Shown here piece after piece: positions 10,041-44,963 of a DNA stretch of 64,000 nt. The translations under genes were made by a program, and so were the position numbers. The stretch is from Candidatus Levyibacteriota bacterium. Lineage in GTDB: Bacteria > Patescibacteriota > Microgenomatia > Levybacterales > UBA12049. Every line of letters starts with the position of its first letter. Position 1 is the first letter of the stretch. The notes under the pieces are model-generated. The model worked only from the letters and a program-made list of their open reading frames with translations, was not told the DNA's origin and did no database searches. The stretch covers positions 207,251-271,250 of the forward strand of contig JACOXU010000001.1 of the NCBI GenBank assembly GCA_016182185.1. The letters are read 5' to 3'.

Positions 10041-10065
10041 ATATTAATTCTAAGTCAACTCAAGG

Positions 10066-10941
10066 TTATTTTCTAGTAGATAGATATATTCCCAGAAGAG
10101 CAAGCGTACCTCCGATGAGAAGTCCTAGCGTAAGTCTCTCGCTCAAAAGCACGAATGCTGCTATAAACGCGAAAATTGGCAAAAGATAAAAAGACATTGA
10201 CGCAAATACTGATCCGCCGTGTTTTATGGCGTATTGGTTAAGAAGATAAGTTATTATTGTACCAAAAATTGCTACATATCCAAGAGATAAAATGCTTGGG
10301 AAATTTATAATTGATATCCATTCGTTATTTTTCCAAAAGTCGACAATAAAGATGGGAAAAAGAATTATTGTTGTGATAAGTATGAATACGCTGTTTATCA
10401 AAAATGGTGAGTAATCTTTGCTATATTTTTTGGAAAATACTATATAAAATGACCAAGATAAAACTCCTCCCGCAATCAAGAGATTTCCTATTAAATCTCC
10501 TGCAAACGGCTTACCCTGTTCAAGAACGGGAAGAAAAGCTACAATAGCAACACCGATAAATCCTACGATAATGCCAATAGATTTGCTAATTGATTGCCTA
10601 TCATTAAAAAGAATAAATAAAATTAAAGATGTGATAAATGGTGTCCCTGCATAAAGCAGTTGTCCTATTGTTGCAGTTGTTGTTCTAATTCCTACTATAA
10701 AAAGAATAATATTAAGAGTTGCAAAAAGAGTAAACGGAATTAATTTTTTTAGCTGCTTAATTGAAAAATTATATTTTTTAAAAAATAGAGGAAGTATGAT
10801 TACTGATGCAATAAAAAATCTCAGAAAGGCAAAAGTAAGAGGAGGAATACTTACCAGTCCAATTTTTGTGGCTGTTGTTACCGCACCACCCATCAATGAG
10901 CCAAGGAAAACTGCCAAAAATGCTATTTGCCGATCAGACAT
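10066..10941 (-). CDS. EamA/DMT-superfamily transporter
   Basis: About 10 TM helices with duplicated EamA-like halves (LRFFIASVIILPLFF...; ...LSERLTLGLLIGGTLALLGIYL). Confidence 0.6.
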   Translation of the reverse strand: MSDRQIAFLAVFLGSLMGGAVTTATKIGLVSIPPLTFAFLRFFIASVIILPLFFKKYNFSIKQLKKLIPFTLFATLNIILFIVGIRTTTATIGQLLYAGTPFITSLILFILFNDRQSISKSIGIIVGFIGVAIVAFLPVLEQGKPFAGDLIGNLLIAGGVLSWSFYIVFSKKYSKDYSPFLINSVFILITTIILFPIFIVDFWKNNEWISIINFPSILSLGYVAIFGTIITYLLNQYAIKHGGSVFASMSFYLLPIFAFIAAFVLLSERLTLGLLIGGTLALLGIYLSTRK

Positions 10942-11166: not shown

Positions 11167-12093
11167 CTATTCATCACTTGAAAACTTAAGCATTTTTCTT
11201 TCGGAAACTTTATCTGAGCTATGAAGAAAAAGATCAGCCAAGAATCCGGTGAAAAATATCTGAATTCCGCTTATAACCAAAAGGATTCCGAGAAAAAGCA
11301 GTGGTCTATTTCCAATTGTATAACCTTCAATACGAAGAACTGTAAGATAGAGAAGAACTATAGTTCCTGCTATAAATAGGAGTCCGCCAACAGGGGCAAA
11401 GAAATGAAGAGGTCTTTTAGCATATTTTGAAAGAAAAAGCATGGTAAACATATCAGGAATTTCAGTAAATACTTTGGAAAATCCATATTTTGATTTACCG
11501 AACTTTCTTTTTTCATGAGTAACCGGAATTTCTGTTACTCTAAAACCATCCTCGTGGAGAAAAAGCGGGATAAAACGATGTCTTCCTCCATATAAATTTA
11601 AGGATTTAGCAGCATCACTTGTATAAAGTTTTAAACCACAATTGTAATCATGCAGCTTTGTTCCCCAAAAGACAGATGCAATCAGATTAAAAAATTTTGA
11701 TGAAATAACCTTTACGATAGAATCCTTACGATTTTTTCTCCAGCCAGAAACAGCATCCCAGCCCTCTTCTTGTTTTTTGATTAATTTTGAAATCTCACTT
11801 GGTTTGTCCTGAAGATCAGCATCAAGTGTAGCTATCAATTCTCCTCTTGCTTTTTGAAATCCAAAGGTTAAGGCTTCTGCTTTCCCCCGATTTCGCCTAA
11901 ATGAAAATATATGAACGCTTTTTTCTTTACTATGAAATTCTTTTAATATTGTAAGGCTATTATCACTTGACCCATCATCAACAAAAATTACCTCATAATC
12001 CACTTTTAGCTTTTTAAATTCTGCTGTAAGCTCTTTAAAAAATGGATTTAAGCTCTCTTCTTCGTTAAAAACAGGCACAATTACGCTTAGCAT
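11167..12093 (-). CDS. GT2 polyprenyl-phosphate sugar transferase (DPM1/GtrB/ArnC-like) with C-terminal TM helices
   Basis: MLSVIVPVFNEEESL...VIFVDDGSSDNS...DADLQD, plus two C-terminal TM helices typical of GtrB/ArnC. Confidence 0.8.
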   Translation of the reverse strand: MLSVIVPVFNEEESLNPFFKELTAEFKKLKVDYEVIFVDDGSSDNSLTILKEFHSKEKSVHIFSFRRNRGKAEALTFGFQKARGELIATLDADLQDKPSEISKLIKKQEEGWDAVSGWRKNRKDSIVKVISSKFFNLIASVFWGTKLHDYNCGLKLYTSDAAKSLNLYGGRHRFIPLFLHEDGFRVTEIPVTHEKRKFGKSKYGFSKVFTEIPDMFTMLFLSKYAKRPLHFFAPVGGLLFIAGTIVLLYLTVLRIEGYTIGNRPLLFLGILLVISGIQIFFTGFLADLFLHSSDKVSERKMLKFSSDE

Positions 12094-12102
12094 ATGCCTA
12101 TT

Positions 12103-14166
12103 TTACCATTTTTTACTTATGTAGCCAAAAATAAGAAGACCTAGAACCAAAGAAACACTAATTAAACTTATCACAACTCCCCTATTGACCCAGTCTTGGG
12201 GGGTATAGTAGATCTCAAGCGTATAATCCCCGCCCTTGGGAAGAGTAAAGCTATTGAATAAATTACTATATTTATGGCTTTTTATACTAATCTCATTATT
12301 TCTTGCCACCCAATATTTATCAAAACTTTCAGAAAAAACAAGAACGTCGTTTTTCTGTGCATTTTTCACTGAAAGTTTATATTTCGTTGGATTAATAGAT
12401 TGAAAACTAATTTCTAAATTTTCCGACGGACTCCAAAAATGACCTCTTGGATCTAAGATTTCAAAAACTGTAATCTTCCCAAATCCCTTAACTTCCTTTA
12501 GCCAATTAATTTTTCTCACGTCTTCTATCGTTTTCAGATATAACGAATCAAAATATTTTCTGTCTTTTAAGAAAATCTCGTGTTGTGAATCAAAGGGGAC
12601 AATTACATATTTAACAGAAAGGTTTTGAAGCTCTACTTGTGATTTTTTATCATTCAGATATTTAACGACATCATAAGGATTATATTTATTTATAAATTCC
12701 TGGCCTGAAATTGAAGGATGAATATCTGATCGAAATCCAAATCTTTCATGTGTAGGGATCCAAAAAGTTCTGTAAAAAACTTTTTCTTTTGATAAGAAAT
12801 TTGCAAGTTTTACATATTCCTGAGGTAAACTTTGTTGCCTGAATGTTCCAGTCAACTCTCCAAAAAATGCAGGGCGGATTAAATACAATAGATATAAAGT
12901 TATAAATAACAAAAAAAAATTCTTTACATTTAGGATCTTGCCTTTGGTGGTTATTTGAAATTTGAAGTTAGAAATTTGAAATTTTAGCTGAGATTCCAGC
13001 AACTTATATAATTTCCAAATGCTAAATGGGATTAGTATTGAATATGAGAGAACAACTAGAAAATACCATTTAGTCGGATCTCTAAACATTACAAATCCCG
13101 GGATATGTTCAAAAAGCCATAAATATATTCCGCCAAATGGGTCATTTGCCCCTTTTGCCAAAAAGGAACCAATTAAGCCCAGGAATATAAAAAAAATTAT
13201 ATATTTTTTTTCATCTTGAGCTAATTTTTTGACAAAAAATAAACTTAAGTATGCAAGAATCGGTATTAGTAAAAACTCTGATTTCATAAAATAAACTTTA
13301 CCAAAAATATTTTCCGGCCAATATGGATGAAGCATTGATATTGTCTGTTCAAATTTTGCAAAACTAAGATATGGAACTATTTCCACCGATGAATAAGCCG
13401 GTCCAAGTTGTTGTATGGGATTTTGCTTAGTAACCAAAAGGGGAATAAGCCAAAAAGCATGAACCAAAAAAGCAATTACACCAGGAGGAACAAAAATAAC
13501 TATAAATTTCTTTATTAAGTCTATGCTATTCCTATTTGCGAGCTGAACAACTATGAAGTAAATCAATACAGAAACAATTGTCGCGTAAAATGCTCTAGGA
13601 TCAAATATTAATTGTAGGGCAATAATTAAACCGGTCAGTATTGATTTCTTAAGATCAAAGTGTTCTTCTTCAATAAGTTTTATGAAAATCCCCAAAACTA
13701 AAGGGGCGATTGCGTAGGCGATTGCAATTGCCATTTGCCCTCCCCCCACAATCATTAAAAGATATGTGTTAAAGATAAATACAAAAGGAGATAAAAAGGA
13801 AAGTTTATTCTTAGGCATCGTTATCTTAAACAAATACCAGGAGGATAAAAATGAAATCAGAATAAATGGCCAAAACCAAATTAATCTTTCTATAAATATC
13901 CATGGAAGATTAAAGTATCTGAATAACACAATCGTTGTGGTTGAAAAATAGGTATGAAGACCTAAAATAAAATTAATATTTATACCCGTATTGCTTAATA
14001 GATAACTCCATACATAGGGGAAGATGGTAAGGCTTTCTATTTGATTTTCAAATCTGAAATTCCAATCACCTGAGGAAATAACATCAAAAGAAAGCCAAGT
14101 TTTAAAAACGGCCAGAACGAGAAAAAAAATGAACAAATATGCAAGCTTTGTAATTATATTTTTCAA
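12103..14166 (-). CDS. large polytopic membrane protein, putative GT-C glycosyltransferase (687 aa) with an extracytoplasmic C-terminal domain
   Basis: At least 12 TM helices, an early-loop ISSGDW motif, a soluble roughly 250-aa C-terminal domain and a terminal TM anchor. It contains heptamer repeats at 12954-12987. Confidence 0.45.
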   Translation of the reverse strand: MKNIITKLAYLFIFFLVLAVFKTWLSFDVISSGDWNFRFENQIESLTIFPYVWSYLLSNTGININFILGLHTYFSTTTIVLFRYFNLPWIFIERLIWFWPFILISFLSSWYLFKITMPKNKLSFLSPFVFIFNTYLLMIVGGGQMAIAIAYAIAPLVLGIFIKLIEEEHFDLKKSILTGLIIALQLIFDPRAFYATIVSVLIYFIVVQLANRNSIDLIKKFIVIFVPPGVIAFLVHAFWLIPLLVTKQNPIQQLGPAYSSVEIVPYLSFAKFEQTISMLHPYWPENIFGKVYFMKSEFLLIPILAYLSLFFVKKLAQDEKKYIIFFIFLGLIGSFLAKGANDPFGGIYLWLFEHIPGFVMFRDPTKWYFLVVLSYSILIPFSIWKLYKLLESQLKFQISNFKFQITTKGKILNVKNFFLLFITLYLLYLIRPAFFGELTGTFRQQSLPQEYVKLANFLSKEKVFYRTFWIPTHERFGFRSDIHPSISGQEFINKYNPYDVVKYLNDKKSQVELQNLSVKYVIVPFDSQHEIFLKDRKYFDSLYLKTIEDVRKINWLKEVKGFGKITVFEILDPRGHFWSPSENLEISFQSINPTKYKLSVKNAQKNDVLVFSESFDKYWVARNNEISIKSHKYSNLFNSFTLPKGGDYTLEIYYTPQDWVNRGVVISLISVSLVLGLLIFGYISKKW
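12954..12987. repeat. imperfect heptanucleotide repeat (TTTGAAA-like)x4.7 inside the coding sequence of 12103..14166
   Basis: tttgaaa tttgaag ttagaaa tttgaaa ttttag, encoding KFQISNFKFQI. Confidence 0.7.
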
Positions 14167-14172
14167 TCTAGC

Positions 14173-15384
14173 CTACTTGTTGGTTTTAATAAATTCTTCA
14201 ATCGCATCAATCATATAATCGAGCATCTCTTTTGTCTGAGAAGAATGCACGCCGAGCAGGAATGAATCTCGATGAACCTTATCCGCTGTTTCTAGTCCGC
14301 CTACCAAAATGACAGGTAAGGATTTGAATCCTGATTGACGAAGAATATTTCCGGCGAAGAAAAGACGGGTTCTAATCTTATTTTTTTCTAAAAATTCTAC
14401 CAGATCTTTCCTACTAAAAGGAACTTTATCTCTCAAAGTTAAGGGAAAATTGAACCATGATGGATTAGCCTGTGGCAAAGTTTCAACAAAATGAAAGTAA
14501 TCTCCCAACTTATTTAATTTTGTCATAAGATATTTAAAATTTTTTCTTCTATCCCTGTGGAAATTTTCTAGCCTGTCCATTTGAACCAAGCCAAATGCTG
14601 CCATAATTTCAGGTACTTTAAAATTATAGCCTATTTCAGAATATGAATACCTATGGTCATAAGGAACTCCATTGCTTATGCTATCAAAATAAACACCATG
14701 ATCTTTGTCGTAACCTAATGTAATCTGTTCTTTTCCCCATTCCCTAAGGCTTTTAACCCGATAGGCAGACTTTTCATTTTTTGAAAGAACTATTCCTCCT
14801 GCACCTGCAAGTGTCATGTGATGGCTGGCATAGAAAGAGCATGTGGAAAAATTGCCAAACGAACCTGTTTTTCTACCATAAATTTCACTTCCTAAACCAT
14901 CACAGTTATCTTCAATAACCTGAAGCTTATACTTAGATGCAAGATGCATAATTCTTTTCATATCAACCGGATTACCAAGGGTGTGAGCAAAAATTATTGC
15001 TTTTATATCTTTATGTTTCTTAACCGCCTGTTCAACTCTATCAAGATCGATGTTTAAACTTTTAAGATCAACATCAACGGCAACAACCTGAAGATGGGAG
15101 TGCCATATAGGAGAAAGAGTCGAAGGAAATCCAGCTGCGCAGGTCAAAACCTTACTCCCCTCGGGAAGATTTAGCACACGTATAGCCAGAAGGTTTGCGG
15201 ATGAACCTGAGTTTACCAGACTTGCATAGGGCATTCCGATATATTTTGCAAAACGTTTTTCGAAACGCTCTGTCAGTCGTCCAGTACCAAGCCATCCGTA
15301 TTTTAGGCAATCCACGACTGCGTTTATCTCTTTCCCATCATAAACTGCTTTTGCAAAAAATATCTGATCTTTTCTTTTCTTCAC
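14173..15384 (-). CDS. DegT/DnrJ/EryC1/StrS-family PLP/PMP enzyme, E1-like sugar 3-dehydrase (RfbH/DdhC-type); GTG start
   Basis: VNSGSSANLLA is the DegT signature. The active-site segment reads SFYASHHMTLAGAGG, with His where aminotransferases have the PLP lysine; this is the hallmark of 3-dehydrases (E1, ColD). AGGA sits 7 nt before the GTG. Confidence 0.6.
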   Translation of the reverse strand: MKKRKDQIFFAKAVYDGKEINAVVDCLKYGWLGTGRLTERFEKRFAKYIGMPYASLVNSGSSANLLAIRVLNLPEGSKVLTCAAGFPSTLSPIWHSHLQVVAVDVDLKSLNIDLDRVEQAVKKHKDIKAIIFAHTLGNPVDMKRIMHLASKYKLQVIEDNCDGLGSEIYGRKTGSFGNFSTCSFYASHHMTLAGAGGIVLSKNEKSAYRVKSLREWGKEQITLGYDKDHGVYFDSISNGVPYDHRYSYSEIGYNFKVPEIMAAFGLVQMDRLENFHRDRRKNFKYLMTKLNKLGDYFHFVETLPQANPSWFNFPLTLRDKVPFSRKDLVEFLEKNKIRTRLFFAGNILRQSGFKSLPVILVGGLETADKVHRDSFLLGVHSSQTKEMLDYMIDAIEEFIKTNK

Positions 15385-15456
15385 AAGATTTTCCTAAAAG
15401 TTTTTATTTTGGAGTATATCATAGTGAAATTTCAATAGTAAAGAAGAATTTTCAAG

Positions 15457-20895: not shown

Positions 20896-21756
20896 CTAAG
20901 GTAAGGTAGCTAAATATCTTATCAATGCAGTTCTCCATGGAGGCAAAACAACACCCAAAGATTTTGCGCTTGTATTCTTAAGAGAGGACACTACGGGAAT
21001 TCTTATACCTTTAAAAACTCCTTTTCTGTCTACAGGAACAATTTCTAAATTAAGCCTTCTTAATTTAACAATTTCCTGTGCAATTTTTACCCAAGAGCAA
21101 TAACCGGTGTTTACCAAATGATAAATTCCTGAACTTGCTTTTTTTTCCAATAATTCTAGTACTCCGCTTGCCAAGTCTTCTGCGTACGCTACGCTTACAA
21201 TTTGCTCCGATGAGATCTCCAAAGTTTTTTTGTTTTTCGCCTCATTTAATATATACAGTATGAAATTTCCTTTTTTAGCTCTACTTCCTCTCTGTCCTCC
21301 AAAAACTCCGCATGTTCTTATTATAATCGTATCCGAATTATAATTAATTGAAGCGATTTCTCCTGCAAATTTTGATAGTCCATAAATTTGCAAAGGGTTT
21401 GGTATATCTTTTTCAACATACGGACCCTCCTTGTCCCCATCGAAAACCCAACTCGTACTAAAATGAACAAATTTTATTTTTTTTTGACTGCATAAATCTC
21501 CTATGTTTCTTACAGCCAAGGTATTAATATTAAAGGCTTTTTGAGGATACCTCTCGCAATTTAATACTACATGATATGCGGCAGTATTAATAACAATTTC
21601 CGGTCTGACTCTATCGATCTTTTTTTTTAGTCTATCAAAATTAGTAATATCTAATTCTTGTTTACTAAAAGCGTGTATTTCATGTCCGTAAATATTAGAA
21701 ATGCGTTCAATTTGGGCGCCTATCTGACCATTTTTACCTAAAAGCAATATTCTCAT
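20896..21756 (-). CDS. RmlD-family (dTDP-4-dehydrorhamnose reductase-like) nucleotide-sugar 4-reductase
   Basis: MRILLLGKNGQIGAQI...INTAAY...NINTLAVRNI...YGLSKFAGE (YxxxK) follows RmlD/RfbD. Its substrate may be a CDP-sugar, given its neighbours. Confidence 0.65.
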   Translation of the reverse strand: MRILLLGKNGQIGAQIERISNIYGHEIHAFSKQELDITNFDRLKKKIDRVRPEIVINTAAYHVVLNCERYPQKAFNINTLAVRNIGDLCSQKKIKFVHFSTSWVFDGDKEGPYVEKDIPNPLQIYGLSKFAGEIASINYNSDTIIIRTCGVFGGQRGSRAKKGNFILYILNEAKNKKTLEISSEQIVSVAYAEDLASGVLELLEKKASSGIYHLVNTGYCSWVKIAQEIVKLRRLNLEIVPVDRKGVFKGIRIPVVSSLKNTSAKSLGVVLPPWRTALIRYLATLP

Positions 21757-21762
21757 TTTTTT

Positions 21763-22212
21763 TCATTTCATGACAATATCCCAGGAATATGGGACTTTTT
21801 GACTTAATGGATCTATTCTAATTATCTCTTTCTCATTGTATGGATGCGTAGAGCAATTAATAAGTACTGCTGGTTTTACGCCGATCGTTTTATAACCATT
21901 AATTACTCCCGGGGGAATTTGTACTAGGCAGTAATTATCTTCTCCAACAAATATTTCCTGAAGTCTCTTGTATGTTTTTGAATTCTTCCTATCATCAAAT
22001 AGGACCAGCTTAATCATTCCCTCCGCAACACAATAGTTTAGTGTCATTTTTTTGTGTTTATGCCAGCCTTTAATAATTCCCGGATAGCTTTTGGAAAAAT
22101 AGACTTCTCCAAAACGCTCGAACTCCCTATCGTCCTCTCTTAACATATGCATAATTGTGCCTCTTTCATCTGGGATTTTACTCAATTTTTTAATGTGGAC
22201 TCCGTCTATCAT
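21763..22212 (-). CDS. RmlC-like cupin sugar 3,5-(or 5-)epimerase
   Basis: DERGTIMHM..., KGWHKHKK (compare RGLHFQ) and a LNYCVAEGMIKLVLFDDR core; about 150 aa. Confidence 0.5.
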   Translation of the reverse strand: MIDGVHIKKLSKIPDERGTIMHMLREDDREFERFGEVYFSKSYPGIIKGWHKHKKMTLNYCVAEGMIKLVLFDDRKNSKTYKRLQEIFVGEDNYCLVQIPPGVINGYKTIGVKPAVLINCSTHPYNEKEIIRIDPLSQKVPYSWDIVMK

Positions 22213-23240
22213 ATCCAGTAAAGTTTTTTGTTTATTTTACGACTATCCAGTAAATATTTCAATTTTTTCATTCTGAAATAATCCGCGCTCTTAAGTTCCG
22301 CCGCAGTCAATTTGGTTTCCTTAAAAAATTTTATCAACTCACTAATACTCTTTTGCAAGTTCATCTTGAATCTGAATTTTGGAAATTTTGTGTTAAACTT
22401 GTAAAAATTCATTTTATAACTTCTTCTATCTCTGCTCTTCTTGTCGCCGAAAACTATTTTACATTCAGGCAATTGTCCATGTATCTCTTGAGCGATATTA
22501 ATAATTAAATAGTTTTGGCTATTTTCTCCTACCAGAAATACTTGATTGTGCACAAGCAACCTCTGACTCTCTATCATTAGCATAAAAACGCGGGATAAAT
22601 CTTTTACATGAATTACAGGACGCCAAGCTCTTCCATCGGATAGAAGAATTATCTTACGGTTAGCTATAGCACAGGCCACAAGATTATTAACCACAAGATC
22701 CAATCTTATGTTGGGAGAATAACCATGAACTGTCGGGTTACGCAGAATAATAGGAGAAAAATTTTCATTAGACAATTCCAGCAATGCTTTTTCTGTCTGA
22801 ACTTTGGTTTTTGCGTAACTGGTCAAAGGGTTGACTGAATCCTCCTCTGTTACCGAAGCTTTAAATTTATTTCCATAAACACTACAAGAAGAGGAAAATA
22901 TAAATCTCTTAACTCCTGTCTGCTTACTTAATTCTGCTAGTCGAACTGAAGCCGAAAAGTTTATTTCGCGAGTTAAGGCAGAATTTAGCTCAGCCATCGG
23001 ATCATTGGACAGAGCTGCTAGATGAACAACAGAGTCAACTCCTTCTAAATCCCTTTTCTCCAGTTTTCGAATATCTTTTTTGAGTCTTGGGTAGGAAAAC
23101 TTTTTCTTATTACTCACAAAATAGTCGGTGTCGCAACCGACAACAGAATATTTTTTGTGAACGAGCATAGGAACCAATACTGCTCCGATATAACCTTGAT
23201 CGCCGGTAACCAAAATTTTTTTCATAACTTTCTCTACCAA
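22209..23240 (-). CDS. NAD-dependent epimerase/dehydratase (SDR); candidate CDP-sugar dehydratase or reductase
   Basis: VTGDQGYIGAVL (GxxGxxG), SSSCSVYG, YAKTK (YxxxK). It lacks the GHTGFKG N-terminus of canonical CDP-glucose 4,6-dehydratase, so the exact reaction is unresolved. Confidence 0.6.
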   Translation of the reverse strand: MVEKVMKKILVTGDQGYIGAVLVPMLVHKKYSVVGCDTDYFVSNKKKFSYPRLKKDIRKLEKRDLEGVDSVVHLAALSNDPMAELNSALTREINFSASVRLAELSKQTGVKRFIFSSSCSVYGNKFKASVTEEDSVNPLTSYAKTKVQTEKALLELSNENFSPIILRNPTVHGYSPNIRLDLVVNNLVACAIANRKIILLSDGRAWRPVIHVKDLSRVFMLMIESQRLLVHNQVFLVGENSQNYLIINIAQEIHGQLPECKIVFGDKKSRDRRSYKMNFYKFNTKFPKFRFKMNLQKSISELIKFFKETKLTAAELKSADYFRMKKLKYLLDSRKINKKLYWI

Positions 23241-24025
23241 ATTTTCCAGACAGGATTATCCACCCATTGTTTGTTCAGCTCTTCTAAATCTTGATAAGTA
23301 TCTACAGCCGACCAATAACCGTTGTGGGCATAAACAGCCAATTGTCTTATCTTAACTAAACGCTCGAGTGCAATTTCTATTGTTTCTTCTGGTTTCACGT
23401 ATTTTAAAAAGGACTTTTTAAAAACCATAAAACCCCCATTAACATATTGATTAAGAAGAGGCTTTTGTACAAAATTTTTGATGATGCCATCCTTATCCGC
23501 TATCACTAAACCCCACTTTGATTTAGGATGTACACCTGTAATAGCGCCAACTGTTTTTTTTGATTTAAAATAAGATAACAATTTAAGTATGTTTATATTA
23601 CCTATACCATCTCCATAGGTTGCCATAAAAATGTCTGACTTGATATATTTTTTAACGCGGAGCAAACGTTCTCCAGTTAGGGTTTCAAGTCCTGTATTAA
23701 CAAAAGTAATTTTAAAATTTTCATGCTTTTCGACACTTCTTCGATAAATTATTTTCCTACCCGTTTTTACTTTAATAGTAAAATCATGAATAAGATACTC
23801 TTCATTTAGAAAGTAGCTTTTAATATAGTCTCCCTTATAGCCTAAAGCGATAATAAAATTATTAAATCCGTAATGAGAATAAATTTTCATGATATGCCAA
23901 AGAATCGGTTTCTCTCCGACAAGCACCATTGGTTTTGGACGAAATTCTGTTTCTTCTTTCATTCTAGTCCCTTGTCCGCCACAAAAAATAACAATAGGAA
24001 TATTCATGATTAACGAGTATAGCAT
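23234..24025 (-). CDS. rfbF: glucose-1-phosphate cytidylyltransferase
   Basis: IVIFCGGQGTRM...RPKPMVLVGEKPILWHIMKIYSHYGFNNFIIALGYKGDYIKSYF...GGFMVF...W.AVDT and a C-terminal PVWKIW match RfbF/DdhA closely. It is the first gene of the leftward operon. Confidence 0.8.
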   Translation of the reverse strand: MLYSLIMNIPIVIFCGGQGTRMKEETEFRPKPMVLVGEKPILWHIMKIYSHYGFNNFIIALGYKGDYIKSYFLNEEYLIHDFTIKVKTGRKIIYRRSVEKHENFKITFVNTGLETLTGERLLRVKKYIKSDIFMATYGDGIGNINILKLLSYFKSKKTVGAITGVHPKSKWGLVIADKDGIIKNFVQKPLLNQYVNGGFMVFKKSFLKYVKPEETIEIALERLVKIRQLAVYAHNGYWSAVDTYQDLEELNKQWVDNPVWKIW

Positions 24026-24030
24026 AGCTA

Positions 24031-24060
24031 ATTCTACCTTGTCGAATATTTTAATTTCAA
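24031..24060 (-). promoter_or_regulatory. sigma70-like promoter of the 24-kb leftward operon; leaderless
   Basis: On the minus strand: TTGAAA (24060-24055), an 18-nt spacer, TAGAAT (24036-24031), then 5 nt to the ATG at 24025. Confidence 0.4.
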
Positions 24061-24067
24061 GTATAAT
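24039..24067 (+). promoter_or_regulatory. sigma70-like promoter; near-leaderless transcript for 24076..25290
   Basis: TTGTCG (24039-44), a 17-nt spacer, TATAAT (24062-67); the ATG is 8 nt downstream. It overlaps the leftward promoter face-to-face. Confidence 0.45.
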
Positions 24068-24075
24068 CCTGAATA

Positions 24076-25290
24076 ATGATTAGCAGTCCAAAAAAAATAA
24101 GAATCCCATATGCTTTGGCTGTATATGATGAGAAAGAAAAAAAACGAATTATAAAAGTTTTAGACGAACACAGAACCAATCTTGGGAGTGAAACTATTTC
24201 GTTTGAGAAAAGTGTGGCAAGACTTTTTGGTAAAAAATTTGGGGTAATGGTAAATTCCGGATCTTCGGCAAATTATCTCGCAGTTGAGTTACTTCAGCTT
24301 CCTCCCGGATCAGAAGTGATCACTCCTCTTTTGACTTTCTCAACAACGGTTGCACCACTTATTCAGCACCGCCTTATTCCAGTTTTTGCAGACGTTGAAC
24401 CAGGTAAATATACGATTGACATAAATCAAATCGAAAAACTCATCTCAAAAAAAACAAAAGCTTTAATGATTCCGCTACTTTTAGGTAATGTGCCAGACAT
24501 GCATGAACTCGCAGGTCTTGCCAAAAAATACAAACTACGATTTATTGAGGACTCATGTGATACATTGGGTGCAAGGTTTAACAAAAAACCTACCGGAAGT
24601 TTTTCCGATATTTCTACTACTAGCTTTTTTGGGTCACATATTATAACTACCGGAGGGAATGGAGGCATGATCTTGATGAATAAATCTAAATGGAAAGACA
24701 GAGCGAAAGTTTTAAGAGGTTGGGGAAGAAGTTCTTCCCTTTTTAGTGAGTCAGAGCAAATTTCAAAACGTTTCAAAACAAAGATAGGTGATATTCCATA
24801 TGATGCTAAATTTATATTTGAAGAGATTGGATATAATTTCCTTCCTTCGGAAATTGGCTCCGCCTTTGGTAACGAGCAGCTTAAAAAACTTCCGACATTC
24901 AGAAGAAAAAGGAGAATACATTTTGCAAGATTACGGAAATTTTTTAAAAAGTATGAAGAATTTTTTATCCTTCCCATACAAAACCCCTCTGCGGAAACTC
25001 AATGGCTCGCTTTCCCGCTGACGATTAGGAAAGAGTCTCCTTTTTCCAGAATGGAAATTACTACATATCTTGAAAAAAATAATGTTCAAACTCGTCCAAT
25101 TTTTACGGGGAGCGTTCTTAGGCAACCTGGCTTTAGAAACATAGTTCATCGCTCTGTTAATAATGGGGCTCCAGTGACTCGCGAAGTTATGGAACGAGGT
25201 TTTCTAATAGGTTGTCATCATGGACTTGAAGAAAAACATATAGAAAAGCTGAAGGAACTTTTCAGGAGATTTTTAAAACGGTACGCTTAA
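24076..25290 (+). CDS. DegT-family PLP/PMP enzyme, second E1-like sugar 3-dehydrase paralog
   Basis: VNSGSSANYLA; the active-site segment SFFGSHIITTGGNGG has His in place of Lys, as in 14173..15384. Confidence 0.6.
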   Translation: MISSPKKIRIPYALAVYDEKEKKRIIKVLDEHRTNLGSETISFEKSVARLFGKKFGVMVNSGSSANYLAVELLQLPPGSEVITPLLTFSTTVAPLIQHRLIPVFADVEPGKYTIDINQIEKLISKKTKALMIPLLLGNVPDMHELAGLAKKYKLRFIEDSCDTLGARFNKKPTGSFSDISTTSFFGSHIITTGGNGGMILMNKSKWKDRAKVLRGWGRSSSLFSESEQISKRFKTKIGDIPYDAKFIFEEIGYNFLPSEIGSAFGNEQLKKLPTFRRKRRIHFARLRKFFKKYEEFFILPIQNPSAETQWLAFPLTIRKESPFSRMEITTYLEKNNVQTRPIFTGSVLRQPGFRNIVHRSVNNGAPVTREVMERGFLIGCHHGLEEKHIEKLKELFRRFLKRYA

Positions 25291-26750
25291 ATTTTAATCA
25301 ACTTTTTAATTTTATAAATACGAACATCTCCAAACTTAGCGGCCATCATATAGTTTTCATCGAGGAATTCATAAAACGGCCAGTCATTAAGAGAAGGTAC
25401 CTGCGGATAATCGACGTGATTTAATTTACTATCGATAACAAATTTAGGAGGATCCATTTCAATTTCTCGGGCGCTTTTGTCGTAAGGTTTAAGAAGCCAT
25501 GGAATAGGCCACAAATACTTATTCGCTGGAAGGCGCTGACTTAAAAAAAGTATATAGTGATTTCCAAGATTCATAATCTTTTCGTCTTTAACCGTATTCT
25601 TCTTAAGCCACACCACAGCTTTCAAATCGTCTTTATTATAATCTACAATATTGTATGGTTTTCCTGGAAAAGATTGGATGTACTCAAAAAGGTTTTGTAC
25701 GTAAGGAATTGAAACAAGTGTGAAAACGATCAGAATAATAAATGACGTTTTAGAAAAAAGGCCGAAGTTTTTGTCGGAGAATTTTGATGACATTGAAATG
25801 AGCTTTGCGAATAAAAATCCGTATCCGACTGAAGAAATGACAAAAAGACCGCGCAAACGATTGATATAAAAGCTCGGTAAAAGTCCAAAAAGAAGCCCGA
25901 ACGCAAACAAGACTAACACAATTACGGCTTCTCTTTCAAATGATGATAAATATTTTTTCTTGTAGATGAAAAGTAAAGGAAAAACAAAAGATGTAAAAAT
26001 AAAAGCGACTTTTAGTCCTTCAGAAGCTGATGCTACGGGCGCATCTTTTGCATATGTTGTTAGATTAAATAAAATGTTCCAGTAAAAGAAATCGATGAAT
26101 GCATTCTGTAAAAAAAAATATAGTGAAATAATCCCTATTACAGAACTGAGTCCTAGAGAAAACCACCAAATTTCTATATTTAATGCCCATCTCTCTTCCC
26201 TGATTTTTTTTACGAAAAGATATATAAATATAACAGGAGCAAGAACAGCAACAACTTGTTTTGTCATAATAGCGGCGCCTATAGATGCGCCGCTTAAAAA
26301 AATGTATTTATCTTTATTTGTTTTTATATACCGCACGAAAAGATACAAGGAGATTGAAGAGAAAAACGCAACAGTTACTTCTTCAAGCTGTGAGTCGGAA
26401 AAGAAAGGAAGGTAGAAAATCGTAAAAAACAAAACGGCAAAAAATCCCGATTTCTGTGAAAGATAGCTTCCGCTTTTGTAGACAAAAAAAAGAGTTAATA
26501 AAACGGTTAATAAAAAATACAGTCTGTAGGCAAAGAATGTATAACCGAAAGTCGTATAGAATCCAGTTAATATAAACTGCATAAGTGGAGTATGGTGATA
26601 AACAATATCTCTATATAAAACGAGGCCATTTTTAATAAGATATGGGACAGTTATATGAATAAGTTGTATGGGTAAGGAAAGTCCCAGATAGACGTAGGCA
26701 AAAAATGAACAAAGAAGAACAAACGCTACTACCAAAAGGATGTGTCGCAT
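25287..26750 (-). CDS. polytopic membrane protein, putative GT-C glycosyltransferase (487 aa)
   Basis: At least 11 TM helices with a conserved early loop (LYRDIVYHHTPL). It is convergent with, and overlaps, the plus-strand gene at TTAA. Confidence 0.4.
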   Translation of the reverse strand: MRHILLVVAFVLLCSFFAYVYLGLSLPIQLIHITVPYLIKNGLVLYRDIVYHHTPLMQFILTGFYTTFGYTFFAYRLYFLLTVLLTLFFVYKSGSYLSQKSGFFAVLFFTIFYLPFFSDSQLEEVTVAFFSSISLYLFVRYIKTNKDKYIFLSGASIGAAIMTKQVVAVLAPVIFIYLFVKKIREERWALNIEIWWFSLGLSSVIGIISLYFFLQNAFIDFFYWNILFNLTTYAKDAPVASASEGLKVAFIFTSFVFPLLFIYKKKYLSSFEREAVIVLVLFAFGLLFGLLPSFYINRLRGLFVISSVGYGFLFAKLISMSSKFSDKNFGLFSKTSFIILIVFTLVSIPYVQNLFEYIQSFPGKPYNIVDYNKDDLKAVVWLKKNTVKDEKIMNLGNHYILFLSQRLPANKYLWPIPWLLKPYDKSAREIEMDPPKFVIDSKLNHVDYPQVPSLNDWPFYEFLDENYMMAAKFGDVRIYKIKKLIKI

Positions 26751-27470
26751 TTAAAAATATCCTAAAGCCCGAAGTCTTTTCATGATTACTTCTCTATCCT
26801 TTGCTCGTCCAGACCTTTCATCTCCCCCAGACTTTGCTGGTTTTGTAAATTCTTTCTCGCCCAGAGACCTGTACCCCAAATCGTATAATGAGATGTAGGG
26901 AACATTTTTACTATGAATGTACTCCCATATATCTTCTTCTGTCCAATGAAGAAGCGGGTGAATCCGGATATGATCTTCTCGCTTGGAAAAATATTTCTCA
27001 TCTATTCTTTCCTTATGCTCGTCCCATCGAATTCCAATAACAAGAGCGGGCAGTTTGTGTTCTTTTACCGCCTGTTTTAGAAGAATAATTTTCATCATAC
27101 TTGCAAAGGTTACCCTATCCCTTTTTGTTTTTTGTTTTTTATACTCGGATGCTAATTTTTTCGAGGGCTTTATAGTAATTAGGTTAAGATTCCACATTCT
27201 GTTTGTCCTTTCTATAAAATTGTAAACCTCCTCAAAATCTAATCCCGTATCCAGAAATAAAACAGGAAATTTTGCTTTTGCTCCAAACATTTCTCGAATT
27301 AAATGAAGTAGGACCGTGGAGTCCTTACCTCCTGTCCAGAATATTGCCATCTGCTCCCCATGCGCTTTAAACGCTTCATTTAATTTCTCTCTACTTTTAG
27401 CAATCTTTTTACTAAGAGAGGTGATTAATTTTTTTTTCATTTTTTTATTTTTATTTTTATTTAATTTCAT
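26751..27470 (-). CDS. CysD-like PP-loop ATP pyrophosphatase (PAPS reductase/sulfate adenylyltransferase subunit 2 family)
   Basis: WTGGKDSTVLLHL is the SGGKDS PP-loop. LFLDTGLDFEEVY matches the CysD HVDTGWKF region. The C-terminus ERSGRAKDREVIMKRLRALGYF resembles the E. coli CysD C-terminus (ERQGRVIDRD...KKRQGYF). Confidence 0.55.
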   Translation of the reverse strand: MKLNKNKNKKMKKKLITSLSKKIAKSREKLNEAFKAHGEQMAIFWTGGKDSTVLLHLIREMFGAKAKFPVLFLDTGLDFEEVYNFIERTNRMWNLNLITIKPSKKLASEYKKQKTKRDRVTFASMMKIILLKQAVKEHKLPALVIGIRWDEHKERIDEKYFSKREDHIRIHPLLHWTEEDIWEYIHSKNVPYISLYDLGYRSLGEKEFTKPAKSGGDERSGRAKDREVIMKRLRALGYF

Positions 27471-27487
27471 AAATCTTTAATCATATT

Positions 27488-27516
27488 AGTTTATCAGTGA
27501 AAACATATACTGTCAA
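27488..27516 (-). promoter_or_regulatory. candidate sigma70-like promoter for 26751..27470
   Basis: On the minus strand: TTGACA (27516-27511), a 17-nt spacer, TAAACT (27493-27488), then 17 nt to the ATG. It lies back-to-back with the plus-strand promoter. Confidence 0.3.
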
Positions 27517-27521
27517 CCTAA

Positions 27522-27550
27522 TTGACTTATGAAGAGTCCTTATTTATACT
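27522..27550 (+). promoter_or_regulatory. sigma70-like promoter; leaderless transcript for 27557..28252
   Basis: TTGACT (27522-27), a 17-nt spacer, TATACT (27545-50), then 6 nt to the ATG at 27557. Confidence 0.5.
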
Positions 27551-27556
27551 TCTGTA

Positions 27557-44030: not shown

Positions 44031-44963
44031 TTAATCGTTTAAATAGGATTTGTACGTTGTTTTAATTCCTTGTTCAATACCGGTTTCTGGTAACCATTTA
44101 AAAATTTTTTTGCATAGGGAAACATCCATAACTTTATAGGGAGCTCCATCCGGTTTTGTTTTATCAAAGACTAACCTACCTTTATATCCAACAATTTTTT
44201 TAATTAACTTTGCCAAATCTAATATGGTTATTCCCTTGCCAACTCCTATATTTATTGGCTCTATGAAGTAATCGATATTTATAGCTTTGATCAGTGCTTC
44301 AGCCCCATCGTCAACATATAACCATTCTCTGACAGGTTTTCCTGTTCCCCATACCACAACTTCAGATAGCCCCTTCTTTTTGGCATTAATAATTTTCATA
44401 AGAAGAGCTCCTAAAGCATGGGATCTTTCGGGATCAAAGTAATCACCGGGTCCGTACATATTTGGTAAGACTAAGTTGATAAATTTCATTCCGTACTGCC
44501 GTGCATACGCCCATGTTTGCGCCCACTGTGCTTTTCTAACCATGCCGTACACCATAACTGAGGGGTGAAGCGGACCATTCCAAAACTCAGATTCTTTAAA
44601 ATCTTTATTCACCACATCAGGATACGCACAATTGGCAATGGGACTTATAAAAAGCTCAACTCCAGTAAGTCTTGCTGCCTCTATTAAATTTGTGCTGATC
44701 AAAATATTATTAAAATATACTTCACCTGCATGATCCAATCCAAACTTAATTCCGCCTATATAGGCAGCTGAGTGAATTACGATATCAGCTTTATTTTTCC
44801 TGAAGTAGGTAAGGGTTTTGTTAAAATTTCTGAAGTCAACTCCACTAGTTAAAGAGGCAGAAACAACCTTGTATTGTTTTTTTTCTTTTAGTTTTTTGAC
44901 TATCCTTTTACCTAAAAATCCATTTCCACCGGCAACAAAAACAGTTTTATTTATCATGCGCAC
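44031..44963 (-). CDS. fcl: GDP-L-fucose synthase-like 3,5-epimerase/4-reductase (Fcl/GMER family; ColC is a homolog)
   Basis: VVVWGTGKPVREWLYVDD and VGYKGRLVFDKTKPDGAPYKVMDV closely parallel E. coli Fcl ([42 protein letters not shown]). Confidence 0.7.
   Translation of the reverse strand: MRMINKTVFVAGGNGFLGKRIVKKLKEKKQYKVVSASLTSGVDFRNFNKTLTYFRKNKADIVIHSAAYIGGIKFGLDHAGEVYFNNILISTNLIEAARLTGVELFISPIANCAYPDVVNKDFKESEFWNGPLHPSVMVYGMVRKAQWAQTWAYARQYGMKFINLVLPNMYGPGDYFDPERSHALGALLMKIINAKKKGLSEVVVWGTGKPVREWLYVDDGAEALIKAINIDYFIEPINIGVGKGITILDLAKLIKKIVGYKGRLVFDKTKPDGAPYKVMDVSLCKKIFKWLPETGIEQGIKTTYKSYLND

What the first reader, a model, noticed from the sequence alone, without database searches (positions are those of the whole stretch)
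24031..24075. Face-to-face overlapping divergent promoters, both apparently leaderless
In the 50-bp gap between rfbF (minus strand) and the E1-like gene (plus strand), a TTGTCG-17-TATAAT promoter on the plus strand puts the ATG 8 nt after the -10 box. On the minus strand TTGAAA-18-TAGAAT puts the rfbF ATG 5 nt after its -10 box. The two promoters overlap, so RNAP occupancy would be mutually exclusive. This offers a simple switch between the 24-kb operon and the divergent E1 gene. Neither start has room for a Shine-Dalgarno sequence.
Basis: seen in the sequence. Interest (0 to 1): 0.5.

Follow-up and report, generated by a model that had tools for sequence, protein, structure and literature searches.

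The report
Divergent leaderless promoter pair in Levybacteria
The short gap between two oppositely oriented sugar-biosynthesis genes of an uncultured Levybacteria (CPR) bacterium holds two ordinary sigma-70-type promoters placed back to back, each so close to its gene that the mRNA probably has no leader; this looks like the normal way this genome starts its operons, not a special switch.

Summary
The plus-strand part is well supported. TTGTCG-17-TATAAT lies 8 nt before the E1-like ATG (24076). Ten further orthologues (58-74% identity) keep a TATAAT or TATTAT box 6-13 nt before a start codon whose position in the protein varies.

The minus-strand part is mis-assigned. rfbF most likely starts at the second ATG (24007), so the gap is 68 nt, not 50. 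The conserved promoter there is TCGACA-18-TGcTATACT, 8 nt before that ATG.

The two promoters are back to back and share the -35 position (TTGTCGA). They are not face to face. 'No room for a Shine-Dalgarno' tells us nothing here, because 0 of 53 window genes has one. A -35/-10 pair ending 6-8 nt before the start codon occurs at 8 of 54 genes, against 0.34 expected.

The 'switch' idea is untested and unlikely, since both genes serve one CDP-sugar pathway. Verdict: a real, conserved, probably leaderless divergent promoter pair, a new member of a known kind, of modest interest. No transcript 5' ends were available.

The parts
24039..24044 (+). -35 hexamer TTGTCG of the E1-like gene promoter
   Evidence: The TTGT core is invariant in the window/L170/L001 alignment.
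24062..24067 (+). -10 hexamer TATAAT of the E1-like gene promoter
   Evidence: An exact TATAAT lies 6-13 nt before the start codon in 9 further orthologues, and TATTAT in one more.
24073..24076 (+). Predicted transcription start. A24075 (T-A, 8th nt after the -10) or A24076 (the A of the ATG) would give a 0-1 nt leader. Inferred, not mapped.
   Evidence: Geometry. Rule from E. coli start-site selection (6th-9th nt after the -10, purine preferred), which is established knowledge.
24076..25290 (+). E1-like (RfbH/ColD-type) sugar 3-dehydratase gene, 404 aa
   Evidence: NF011936 RfbH 4.6e-103, 345 bits, below the cutoff of 423. Best solved structure is Yersinia E1 3BCX, 1.7e-67. The exact protein is MBI2031234.1.
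24040..24045 (-). -35 hexamer TCGACA of the rfbF promoter. It shares 5 bp with the plus-strand -35.
   Evidence: The -35 hexamers coincide in the same way in L001 (TTGTAAA). In L170 they sit in the palindrome TTGTCTAGACAA.
24016..24024 (-). Extended -10 TGcTATACT of the rfbF promoter
   Evidence: TG flagged. Conserved as TGcTATAAT in L001 and TGgTATACT in L170.
24005..24007 (-). Probable true rfbF start codon (ATG, 8 nt after the -10). Predicted leaderless start at A24007.
   Evidence: NCBI and Logan gene calls give 257 aa. TIGR02623 profile position 3 aligns to residue 11 of the long form. L001 and L170 orthologues start here. The base after the ATG is A, as in 45 of 53 window genes.
23234..24007 (-). 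rfbF (glucose-1-phosphate cytidylyltransferase), 257 aa, first gene of the minus-strand run
   Evidence: TIGR02623 4e-70, 236 bits, below the cutoff of 300. NCBI name taken.
24031..24060 (-). Possibly a secondary promoter that would give a leader of about 16-17 nt to ATG 24007. Not conserved.
   Evidence: 10/12 match. The equivalent positions read TTAAAT in L001 and CCTTAT in L170.
24023..24025 (-). Probably not the start. Codons 2-3 and the first base of codon 4 of that longer ORF are the conserved -10 box.
   Evidence: The 263-aa form is not in the 15-billion-protein collection. There is no equivalent ATG in L001 or L170.

Best explanation
The 68-nt gap (24008-24075) holds two constitutive sigma-70-type promoters arranged back to back, and their -35 hexamers fall on the same 7 bp (TTGTCGA). 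The rightward promoter is TTGTCG-17-TATAAT. It starts transcription at or 1 nt before the ATG of the E1-like dehydratase gene (24076). The leftward promoter is TCGACA-18-TGcTATACT, an extended -10. It starts at or a few nt before the rfbF ATG at 24007. Both mRNAs are therefore leaderless or nearly so and would be translated from a 5'-terminal AUG.

This appears to be the usual way this Levybacteria genome expresses the first gene of an operon. It has no Shine-Dalgarno sequences, and many first genes carry a -10 box 6-8 nt before the start codon. The pair most likely serves to co-express two parts of one CDP-deoxyhexose pathway.

What is shown: the sequence elements, their statistical excess, their conservation and the genome-wide pattern. 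What is inferred: the start-site positions, leaderless translation and any interplay between the two polymerases.
For: 1. Elements and spacing are present.
2. They exceed chance. Three sites of >=10/12 lie in 68 nt against 0.058 expected. Both strands with a -10 ending 5-8 nt from the ATGs occurred in 0 of 20,000 shuffles.
3. The plus side is conserved. The -10 box ends 6-8 nt before the start codon in L001, L002, L003, L005, L167, L168, L169 and L170. It ends 11 nt before in L004 and 13 nt before in L085. Most have a TTGnnn -35 at 16-18 nt. Meanwhile the N-terminal tail ahead of the conserved RIPYA motif varies from 1 to 9 residues. So the start codon tracks the -10 box rather than the protein core.
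4. The minus side is conserved. L170, a second Levybacteria MAG with the same rfbF<->E1 layout and a 71-nt gap, has TAGACA-18-TGgTATACT-6-ATG. L001 has TTTACA-18-TGcTATAAT. The conserved islands in the three-way alignment are exactly the two -10 boxes, the TTGT of the -35 and the start codons.
5. rfbF starts at 24007.
6. The pattern is genome-wide. -35/-10 pairs of >=9/12 end 6-8 nt before the start codon at 8 of 54 genes, against 0.34 expected, with a sharp peak in the distance histogram. The same geometry occurs on both sides of a divergent gap outside the window, in L164: TGcTATAAT-6-ATG and TGcTATACT-8-ATG. A distance of 6-8 nt is the published signature of bacterial leaderless transcription (PMC6028130).
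7. No SD is present at any of 53 genes.
Against: - No transcript 5' ends exist for this organism, so every start site is inferred.
- With 8 nt after the -10, the A of the ATG is the 9th nucleotide, at the far edge of the usual range. A leader of 1-4 nt is as likely as a strictly leaderless mRNA.
- Leaderless geometry on the rfbF side is not universal. The distance is 19 nt in L001 (with a GGAG) and 29 nt in L085.
- Promoter rules are borrowed from E. coli and have not been tested for Levybacteria.
- Minus-strand read-through from the promoter at 27470 could also feed rfbF, because the convergent E1 and GT39 genes overlap by 4 nt with no visible terminator.
Confidence: 0.55

Rival explanations
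1. Tandem leftward promoters. Both the conserved TGcTATACT promoter and the reader's TTGAAA-18-TAGAAT are active. rfbF would then be made from a leaderless mRNA and also from an mRNA with a leader of about 16-17 nt and no SD. Only the upstream one would overlap the whole E1 promoter.
For: Its -10 ends 23 nt before ATG 24007. That is within the range of the leadered units seen in this window: 17 nt at 27470, 21 nt at 44957 and 28 nt at 15384.
Against: Neither hexamer is conserved in L001 or L170. Sites of >=10/12 occur 47 times in the window, mostly inside genes, so one extra site in an AT-rich gap is not compelling.
Confidence: 0.2
2. rfbF starts at ATG 24025 and is transcribed leaderless from TTGAAA-18-TAGAAT. 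This promoter overlaps the E1 promoter almost completely, so RNA polymerase occupancy is mutually exclusive and acts as a switch between E1 and the long operon.
For: The hexamers and the ATG exist. The A of ATG 24025 is the 6th nt after TAGAAT and follows a T, so it is an allowed start site.
Against: - ATG 24025 and both hexamers are absent in L001 and L170.
- Both gene callers use 24007, and the 263-aa form is not in the protein collection.
- No window gene has a -35/-10 pair 5 nt from its start; the mode is 6-8 nt.
- The base after ATG 24025 is C, whereas it is A in 45 of 53 genes.
- The two genes act in one pathway and co-occur in more than 30 loci.
- In E. coli, overlap alone does not produce competition at basal promoter activity (PMC12825309).
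Confidence: 0.07
3. The boxes are not promoters. The TATAAT-like motifs close to start codons are AT-rich translation-initiation signals of an SD-less organism (non-SD ribosome-binding sites, as in Bacteroidota). In that case the real start sites lie further upstream, for example inside the neighbouring gene, and the mRNAs have leaders.
For: The genome has no SD, so some other upstream signal could be expected. Upstream regions are A/T-rich at all genes. A plus-strand 10/12 site with TG lies 427 nt upstream, inside rfbF, at 23620-23649.
Against: Eight of the 9 close -10 boxes have a -35-like hexamer at 16-18 nt. By my tally and the ORF list, they sit mainly at genes preceded by a gap: about 6 of 15 genes with a gap of at least 25 nt, against about 2 of 39 genes without one. 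A ribosome-binding motif should occur at internal genes too (criterion in PMC6028130). Three rfbF-side boxes carry the TGn extension, which is an RNA polymerase contact.
Confidence: 0.1

Closest known systems
Bacterial leaderless transcription units (GeneMarkS-2 'group C' genomes such as Mycobacterium, Streptomyces and Deinococcus)
   Same: A Pribnow box lies 6-8 nt upstream of the start codon of first-in-operon genes, there is no ribosome-binding site, and the start codon is ATG or GTG (PMC6028130).
   Different: In group C genomes the internal and leadered genes use SD sites. Here no gene has one (0 of 53). The organism is a CPR/Microgenomates bacterium. In five literature searches I found no report of leaderless transcription for this group. 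No start-site data exist.
Back-to-back or overlapping divergent promoters (Beck and Warren 1988 classification; for example Tn10 tetA/tetR and ilvY/ilvC). Cited from my own knowledge.
   Same: Two sigma-70 promoters on opposite strands sit in a gap of under 100 bp with overlapping upstream elements, so their RNA polymerase footprints overlap.
   Different: No repressor or activator site was identified. The neighbouring gene is not a regulator. Both genes are enzymes of one pathway. The overlap is at the -35 hexamers.
Bidirectional promoters with a shared, symmetric -10 element (Warman et al.; bioRxiv 10.1101/2020.01.31.928960; PMC12825309)
   Same: Divergent transcription exploits the near-palindromic nature of a core promoter element. 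Here that element is the -35: TTGTCGA reads TTGTCG on one strand and TCGACA on the other, and L170 has TTGTCTAGACAA.
   Different: That class is defined by start sites 7-25 bp apart (mode 18) around one shared -10. Here the predicted start sites are about 69 bp apart, with separate -10 boxes and a shared -35.
Face-to-face divergent promoters (for example E. coli bioA/bioBFCD). Cited from my own knowledge.
   Same: A compact divergent control region between biosynthetic genes.
   Different: Face-to-face means each start site lies downstream of the other, so the transcripts overlap. Here the transcripts diverge without overlap in either model (51 or 69 bp apart).

Membership tests
Sigma-70-type promoter (each of the two) | A -35-like and a -10-like hexamer separated by 16-18 bp, with A at position 2 and T at position 6 of the -10 | tested here: met
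   Plus strand: TTGTCG-17-TATAAT, 10/12. Minus strand: TCGACA-18-TATACT, 10/12, with a TG extension.
Sigma-70-type promoter (each of the two) | The elements are conserved in orthologous regions while the surrounding intergenic DNA diverges | tested here: met
   The three-way alignment conserves the two -10 boxes and TTGT. Ten further orthologues keep the box: TATAAT in 9 and TATTAT in 1.
Sigma-70-type promoter (each of the two) | A transcript 5' end 6-9 nt downstream of the -10 | not testable with these tools
   No RNA data are available for this uncultured organism.
Leaderless mRNA / leaderless transcription unit | The -10 box ends 6-8 nt before the start codon | tested here: met
   8 nt on both sides. 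The window-wide peak is at 6-8 nt: 8 of 54 genes against 0.34 expected. The criterion is from PMC6028130.
Leaderless mRNA / leaderless transcription unit | No ribosome-binding site between the start site and the start codon | tested here: inconclusive
   None is present, but none is present at any of the 53 genes, so the feature does not discriminate.
Leaderless mRNA / leaderless transcription unit | The mRNA 5' end coincides with the start codon (0-5 nt) and is translated | not testable with these tools
   Needs 5'-end mapping and ribosome profiling or N-terminal proteomics.
Bidirectional promoter in the sense of Warman et al. | Divergent start sites 7-25 bp apart around one shared, symmetric -10 element | tested here: not met
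   The -10 boxes are separate, at 24016-24021 and 24062-24067. Predicted start sites are about 69 bp apart. Definition.
Face-to-face divergent promoters | Each start site lies downstream of the other, so the transcripts overlap | tested here: not met
   The predicted start sites (about 24007 or 24024 leftward, about 24075 rightward) point away from each other.
RfbH/E1 (CDP-4-keto-6-deoxyglucose 3-dehydrase) | Reaches the curated family score, has His in place of the PLP lysine, and has the Cys-rich [2Fe-2S] motif | tested here: not met
   NF011936 scores 345 bits, below the cutoff of 423. His is present (SFFGSHIIT aligned to SFYPAHHIT). The motif RDWGRDCYCAPGCDNTC is replaced by RGWGRSSSLFSESEQ, which has no Cys. 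The protein therefore resembles E1 and ColD but is not a full E1.
RfbF (glucose-1-phosphate cytidylyltransferase, TIGR02623) | Full-length match above the curated cutoff | tested here: inconclusive
   4e-70, 236 bits, full length (profile positions 3-255 of 255), but below the cutoff of 300.25. NCBI names it a glucose-1-phosphate cytidylyltransferase.

The most novel reading that the evidence does not exclude
Levybacteria, and perhaps many CPR lineages, may run a translation-initiation regime with no Shine-Dalgarno pairing at all. First cistrons would be leaderless and internal cistrons would start by an SD-independent route. The rfbF<->E1 control region would then be a conserved module in which two leaderless promoters share one palindromic -35 (TTGTCGA, or TTGTCTAGACAA in L170). 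That would be a -35-sharing counterpart of the known -10-sharing bidirectional promoters. The extended -10 on the rfbF side would let both directions fire from one shared -35.
Probability: 0.35. Interest if true: 0.5.

Novelty: new member of a known kind. Interest (0 to 1): 0.3.

Why it matters
As a single locus it matters little. It is a compact divergent promoter pair for two parts of a CDP-deoxysugar pathway. Its value is as a clean, conserved example of how an uncultured CPR bacterium appears to start its operons: leaderless, with no Shine-Dalgarno.

If start-site mapping confirmed this, it would extend leaderless initiation, documented mainly in Actinobacteria, Deinococcus and archaea, to the Microgenomates. 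It would also improve start-codon calling there; this window shows an 18-nt ambiguity that the promoter geometry resolves. Finally it would provide a natural shared -35 bidirectional promoter for studying RNA polymerase competition.

Tried and rejected
- Leptospira origin. I first suspected it from the rfb genes and low G+C. The exact proteins belong to a Candidatus Levybacteria MAG.
- Close relatives for hexamer-level conservation. None exists. The nearest E1 homologue is 74% identical among 7,557 hits, and the Logan contigs are identical to the window. I therefore used three relatives with the same divergent layout, at about 70% identity (L001, L085, L170), plus seven other orthologues.
- Extending the genome sample. 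Only about 4 kb was gained (L164), and the 617-kb NCBI contig could not be fetched. The 4 kb did give an independent divergent gap with the same geometry.
- A regulator site. The only notable inverted repeat is 24001-24012 / 24064-24075 (11 of 12). It is not conserved in L001, and my rough estimate of its chance probability is 0.08. I rejected it as an operator.
- A structured RNA or riboswitch in the gap. Rfam gave no hit anywhere in the window.
- Intrinsic terminators that would delimit the '24-kb operon'. The counts are at shuffle level.
- Literature on leaderless or SD usage in CPR. I found only loss of the anti-SD in a Parcubacteria subgroup (PMC9297842), and nothing for Levybacteria.

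Full report
**What the window is.** Exact-sequence look-up places the proteins of this window in a Candidatus Levybacteria MAG (CPR/Patescibacteria, Microgenomates). They lie on a 617-kb contig as MBI2031215 to MBI2031241. The window is 33% G+C and is almost entirely a glycosylation and polysaccharide locus read on the minus strand.

The gene left of the gap is a glucose-1-phosphate cytidylyltransferase (TIGR02623, 4e-70, below the curated cutoff; NCBI uses the same name). The gene to the right is an E1/RfbH-like PMP-dependent sugar 3-dehydratase. It matches NF011936 at 4.6e-103, below the cutoff. Its best solved structure is Yersinia E1 3BCX at 1.7e-67.

**Checking the observation.** Every hexamer quoted is present.
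- Plus strand: TTGTCG (24039-24044), 17 nt, TATAAT (24062-24067), CCTGAATA, ATG 24076.
- Minus strand: TTGAAA (24060..24055), 18 nt, TAGAAT (24036..24031), TAGCT, ATG 24025.
- A TGA at 24070-24072 rules out a longer E1-like ORF.

Promoter-like matches are frequent in this AT-rich DNA. One search found 15 against 11.4 +/- 3.5 in shuffles over 4 kb. One search found 47 sites of >=10/12 in the whole window. The gap nevertheless contains three of those 47. In 20,000 dinucleotide-preserving shuffles of the gap the mean was 0.058 such sites. A site on both strands appeared in 0.1% of shuffles. A site on both strands ending 5-8 nt from the flanking ATGs never appeared. The cluster is real.

**The third site is the important one.** The scan also reports TCGACA (24045..24040), 18 nt, TATACT (24021..24016) preceded by TG. 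This extended -10 ends 8 nt before the second in-frame ATG of rfbF at 24007.

**Which rfbF start codon.** Five lines favour 24007.
- Both the NCBI annotation and the Logan gene calls give a 257-aa protein. The 263-aa form is not in the 15-billion-protein collection.
- The family profile begins at residue 9-11 of the long form.
- Orthologues in L001 (79% identical) and L170 begin at the equivalent Met (MKIPVVIFCGG) with no in-frame ATG upstream.
- The base after the ATG is A at 24007. It is A in 45 of 53 window genes, but C after ATG 24025.
- Codons 2-3 and the first base of codon 4 of the longer ORF are the conserved -10 box itself.

The gap is therefore 68 nt (24008-24075, 28% G+C), not 50.

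**Conservation.** No close relative exists. The best E1 homologue among 7,557 is 74% identical, and the Logan contigs are identical to the window. Most relatives have the classical co-directional rfbF-rfbG-rfbH order. Three have the divergent rfbF<->E1 layout: L001, L085 and L170. L170 is a second Levybacteria MAG, GCA_030650175.1.

In the window/L170/L001 alignment the conserved intergenic islands are TG.TATA.T (the rfbF -10), TTGT (the -35) and TATAAT (the E1 -10).
- L170: TAGACA-18-TATAAT-7-GTG on the E1 side and TAGACA-18-TGgTATACT-6-ATG on the rfbF side. The two -35 hexamers sit in a perfect palindrome, TTGTCTAGACAA.
- L001: TTGTAA-16-TATAAT-6-ATG and TTTACA-18-TGcTATAAT-19-ATG. Its -35 hexamers coincide (TTGTAAA), as in the window (TTGTCGA).

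For the E1-like gene the evidence is broader. The -10 box ends 6 nt before the start in L001, L002 and L168. It ends 7 nt before in L003, L167, L169 and L170, and 8 nt before in the window and L005 (TATTAT). It ends 11 nt before in L004 and 13 nt before in L085. There is usually a TTGnnn hexamer 16-18 nt upstream. Over the same set, the N-terminal tail before the conserved RIPYA motif varies from 1 to 9 residues. The start codon therefore follows the -10 box rather than the protein core, which is what leaderless initiation predicts.

**The pattern is genome-wide.** None of 53 curated gene starts has GGAG or GAGG at -20 to -4, against 5.6% of random 17-mers. The same holds for 1 of 34 genes in other CPR-labelled loci. 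The figures for controls were 7 of 22 in Legionellaceae/Coxiellaceae loci and 0 of 21 in Bacteroidota, which are known non-SD users. 'No room for a Shine-Dalgarno' is therefore uninformative here.

What does stand out is the distance histogram. -35/-10 pairs of >=9/12 end 6, 7 or 8 nt before the start codon at 4, 2 and 2 genes. That is 8 of 54 against 0.34 expected from the window-wide density, and about 0.4 per position elsewhere. Besides the two genes in question these include 27557, 51537, 28304, 10040 and 12093.

Outside the window, the only extra sequence I could fetch (L164) has a divergent gap with TGcTATAAT-6-ATG on one side and TGcTATACT-8-ATG on the other. A Pribnow box 6-8 nt from the start codon of first-in-operon genes is the published signature of bacterial leaderless transcription (PMC6028130). 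Leadered units also exist here: 17 nt at 27470, 21 nt at 44957 and 28 nt at 15384.

**Most likely mechanism.** Two back-to-back sigma-70-type promoters share the -35 position. By the E. coli start-site rule (6th-9th nt after the -10, purine after pyrimidine preferred; established knowledge), the rightward transcript should begin at A24075 or A24076, giving a 0-1 nt leader. The leftward transcript should begin at A24007 (C-A, 9th nt) or a few nt upstream. Both mRNAs would be translated from a 5'-terminal AUG.

These start sites and the translation mode are inferred. No RNA data exist. Predicted start sites are about 69 bp apart and the transcripts do not overlap. The arrangement is therefore back to back. 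It is not face to face, and it is not the shared -10 bidirectional class, which has start sites 7-25 bp apart.

**On the 'switch'.** The footprints of two polymerases would overlap, and both sigma region 4 domains would need the same 5-7 bp. Some competition is therefore physically plausible. Four points argue against a switch.
- The rfbF-side promoter has an extended -10 in all three divergent relatives examined. This type is less dependent on the -35 (established knowledge).
- In E. coli, overlapping bidirectional promoters do not compete at basal activity. They compete only when one side is strongly activated (PMC12825309).
- RfbF and the E1-like enzyme belong to one pathway and are clustered in more than 30 loci, so co-expression is the sensible expectation.
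- No conserved operator-like repeat was found. The 12-nt inverted repeat is absent from L001.

I rate the switch as unsupported. The '24-kb operon' is also unverified. The minus-strand run contains internal promoter-like sites with the same geometry at 12093 and 10040, and a leadered one at 15384.

**Rivals.** I cannot exclude this (0.2). The idea that the boxes are translation signals rather than promoters (0.1) is weakened by three observations. They have properly spaced -35 partners. They carry TGn extensions. By my tally and the ORF list, they sit mainly at genes preceded by a gap.

**Novelty and verdict.** Leaderless mRNAs from promoters that sit against the start codon are well known, and so are compact divergent promoter pairs. 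This instance is new, and it lies in a lineage for which I found no such report. It is a new member of a known kind. Interest is 0.3. What lifts it slightly above ordinary is the conserved shared, palindromic -35 and the apparently SD-free, leaderless-first-gene regime of this CPR genome.

Noticed in passing
window 1-64000 (all gene starts): No Shine-Dalgarno anywhere. 0 of 53 genes has GGAG or GAGG at -20 to -4, against 5.6% background. The base after the start codon is A in 45 of 53 genes. Other CPR-labelled loci give 1 of 34. Gammaproteobacterial controls give 7 of 22. The only related report found describes anti-SD loss in a Parcubacteria subgroup, not in Microgenomates (PMC9297842).
   Followed up: partly
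window 27471-27556: A second divergent gap with the same style. TTGACA-17-TGaTAAACT ends 17 nt before ATG 27470 (-). TTGACT-17-TATACT ends 6 nt before ATG 27557 (+). The -35 hexamers are back to back, 5 bp apart.
   Followed up: partly
L164 3435-3511 (Logan contig continuing beyond the left end of the window): A third divergent gap in the same genome. TGcTATAAT lies 6 nt before ATG 3512 (+) and TGcTATACT lies 8 nt before ATG 3434 (-).
   Followed up: partly
window 24076-25290 and its orthologues in L170, L001, L168, L169, L167, L003, L004: In 7 of 10 loci the E1-like gene is a lone gene with oppositely oriented genes on both sides. In L167 the upstream side is missing, but the downstream gene is also opposite. 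Its 3' end often overlaps the convergent neighbour: 4 nt in the window (25287-25290), 29 nt in L170 and 17 nt in L168. This leaves no room for a terminator. Minus-strand read-through would be antisense to E1.
   Followed up: partly
window 24076-25290 (protein residues about 190-230): The E1-like protein keeps His in place of the PLP lysine (SFFGSHIIT). It lacks the Cys-rich [2Fe-2S] motif of true E1: RDWGRDCYCAPGCDNTC aligns to RGWGRSSSLFSESEQ. It is probably a ColD-like 3-dehydratase that needs no E3 reductase. None of the seven neighbouring ORFs scanned (20896-27470) matched an E3/RfbI-type reductase.
   Followed up: partly
window 24001-24012 and 24064-24075: A 12-nt inverted repeat (TATTCATGATTA / TAATCCTGAATA, 11 of 12) brackets the gap. 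One arm covers the rfbF ATG and the other lies just before the E1 ATG. It is not conserved in L001. My rough estimate of its chance probability is about 0.08.
   Followed up: partly
window 10047-10075, 12100-12128, 15413-15442 (minus strand): Internal promoter-like sites lie inside the supposed 24-kb operon. TAGAAA-17-TAGAAT ends 6 nt before ATG 10040. TTGGCT-17-TGgTAAAAT ends 6 nt before ATG 12093. TTTACT-18-TGaTATACT ends 28 nt before GTG 15384. The run is probably several transcription units.
   Followed up: partly
L085 2300-2430: The divergent rfbF<->E1 gap of this relative is about 250 bp. It contains a GC-rich insert with a perfect palindrome (GTCCGTCAGCTGACGGAC) that is unlike the AT-rich surroundings. 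It may be a small inserted repeat element.
   Followed up: no
L167 1442-2074: In this relative an IS200/IS605-type Y1 transposase gene (PF01797) converges on the 3' end of the E1-like gene and overlaps it.
   Followed up: no
window 23620-23649 (plus strand, inside rfbF): A 10/12 promoter-like site with a TG extension (TTGCCA-18-TATATT) lies antisense within rfbF, 427 nt upstream of the E1 ATG. It could be chance, since there are 47 such sites in the window, or it could be an antisense or long-leader promoter.
   Followed up: no
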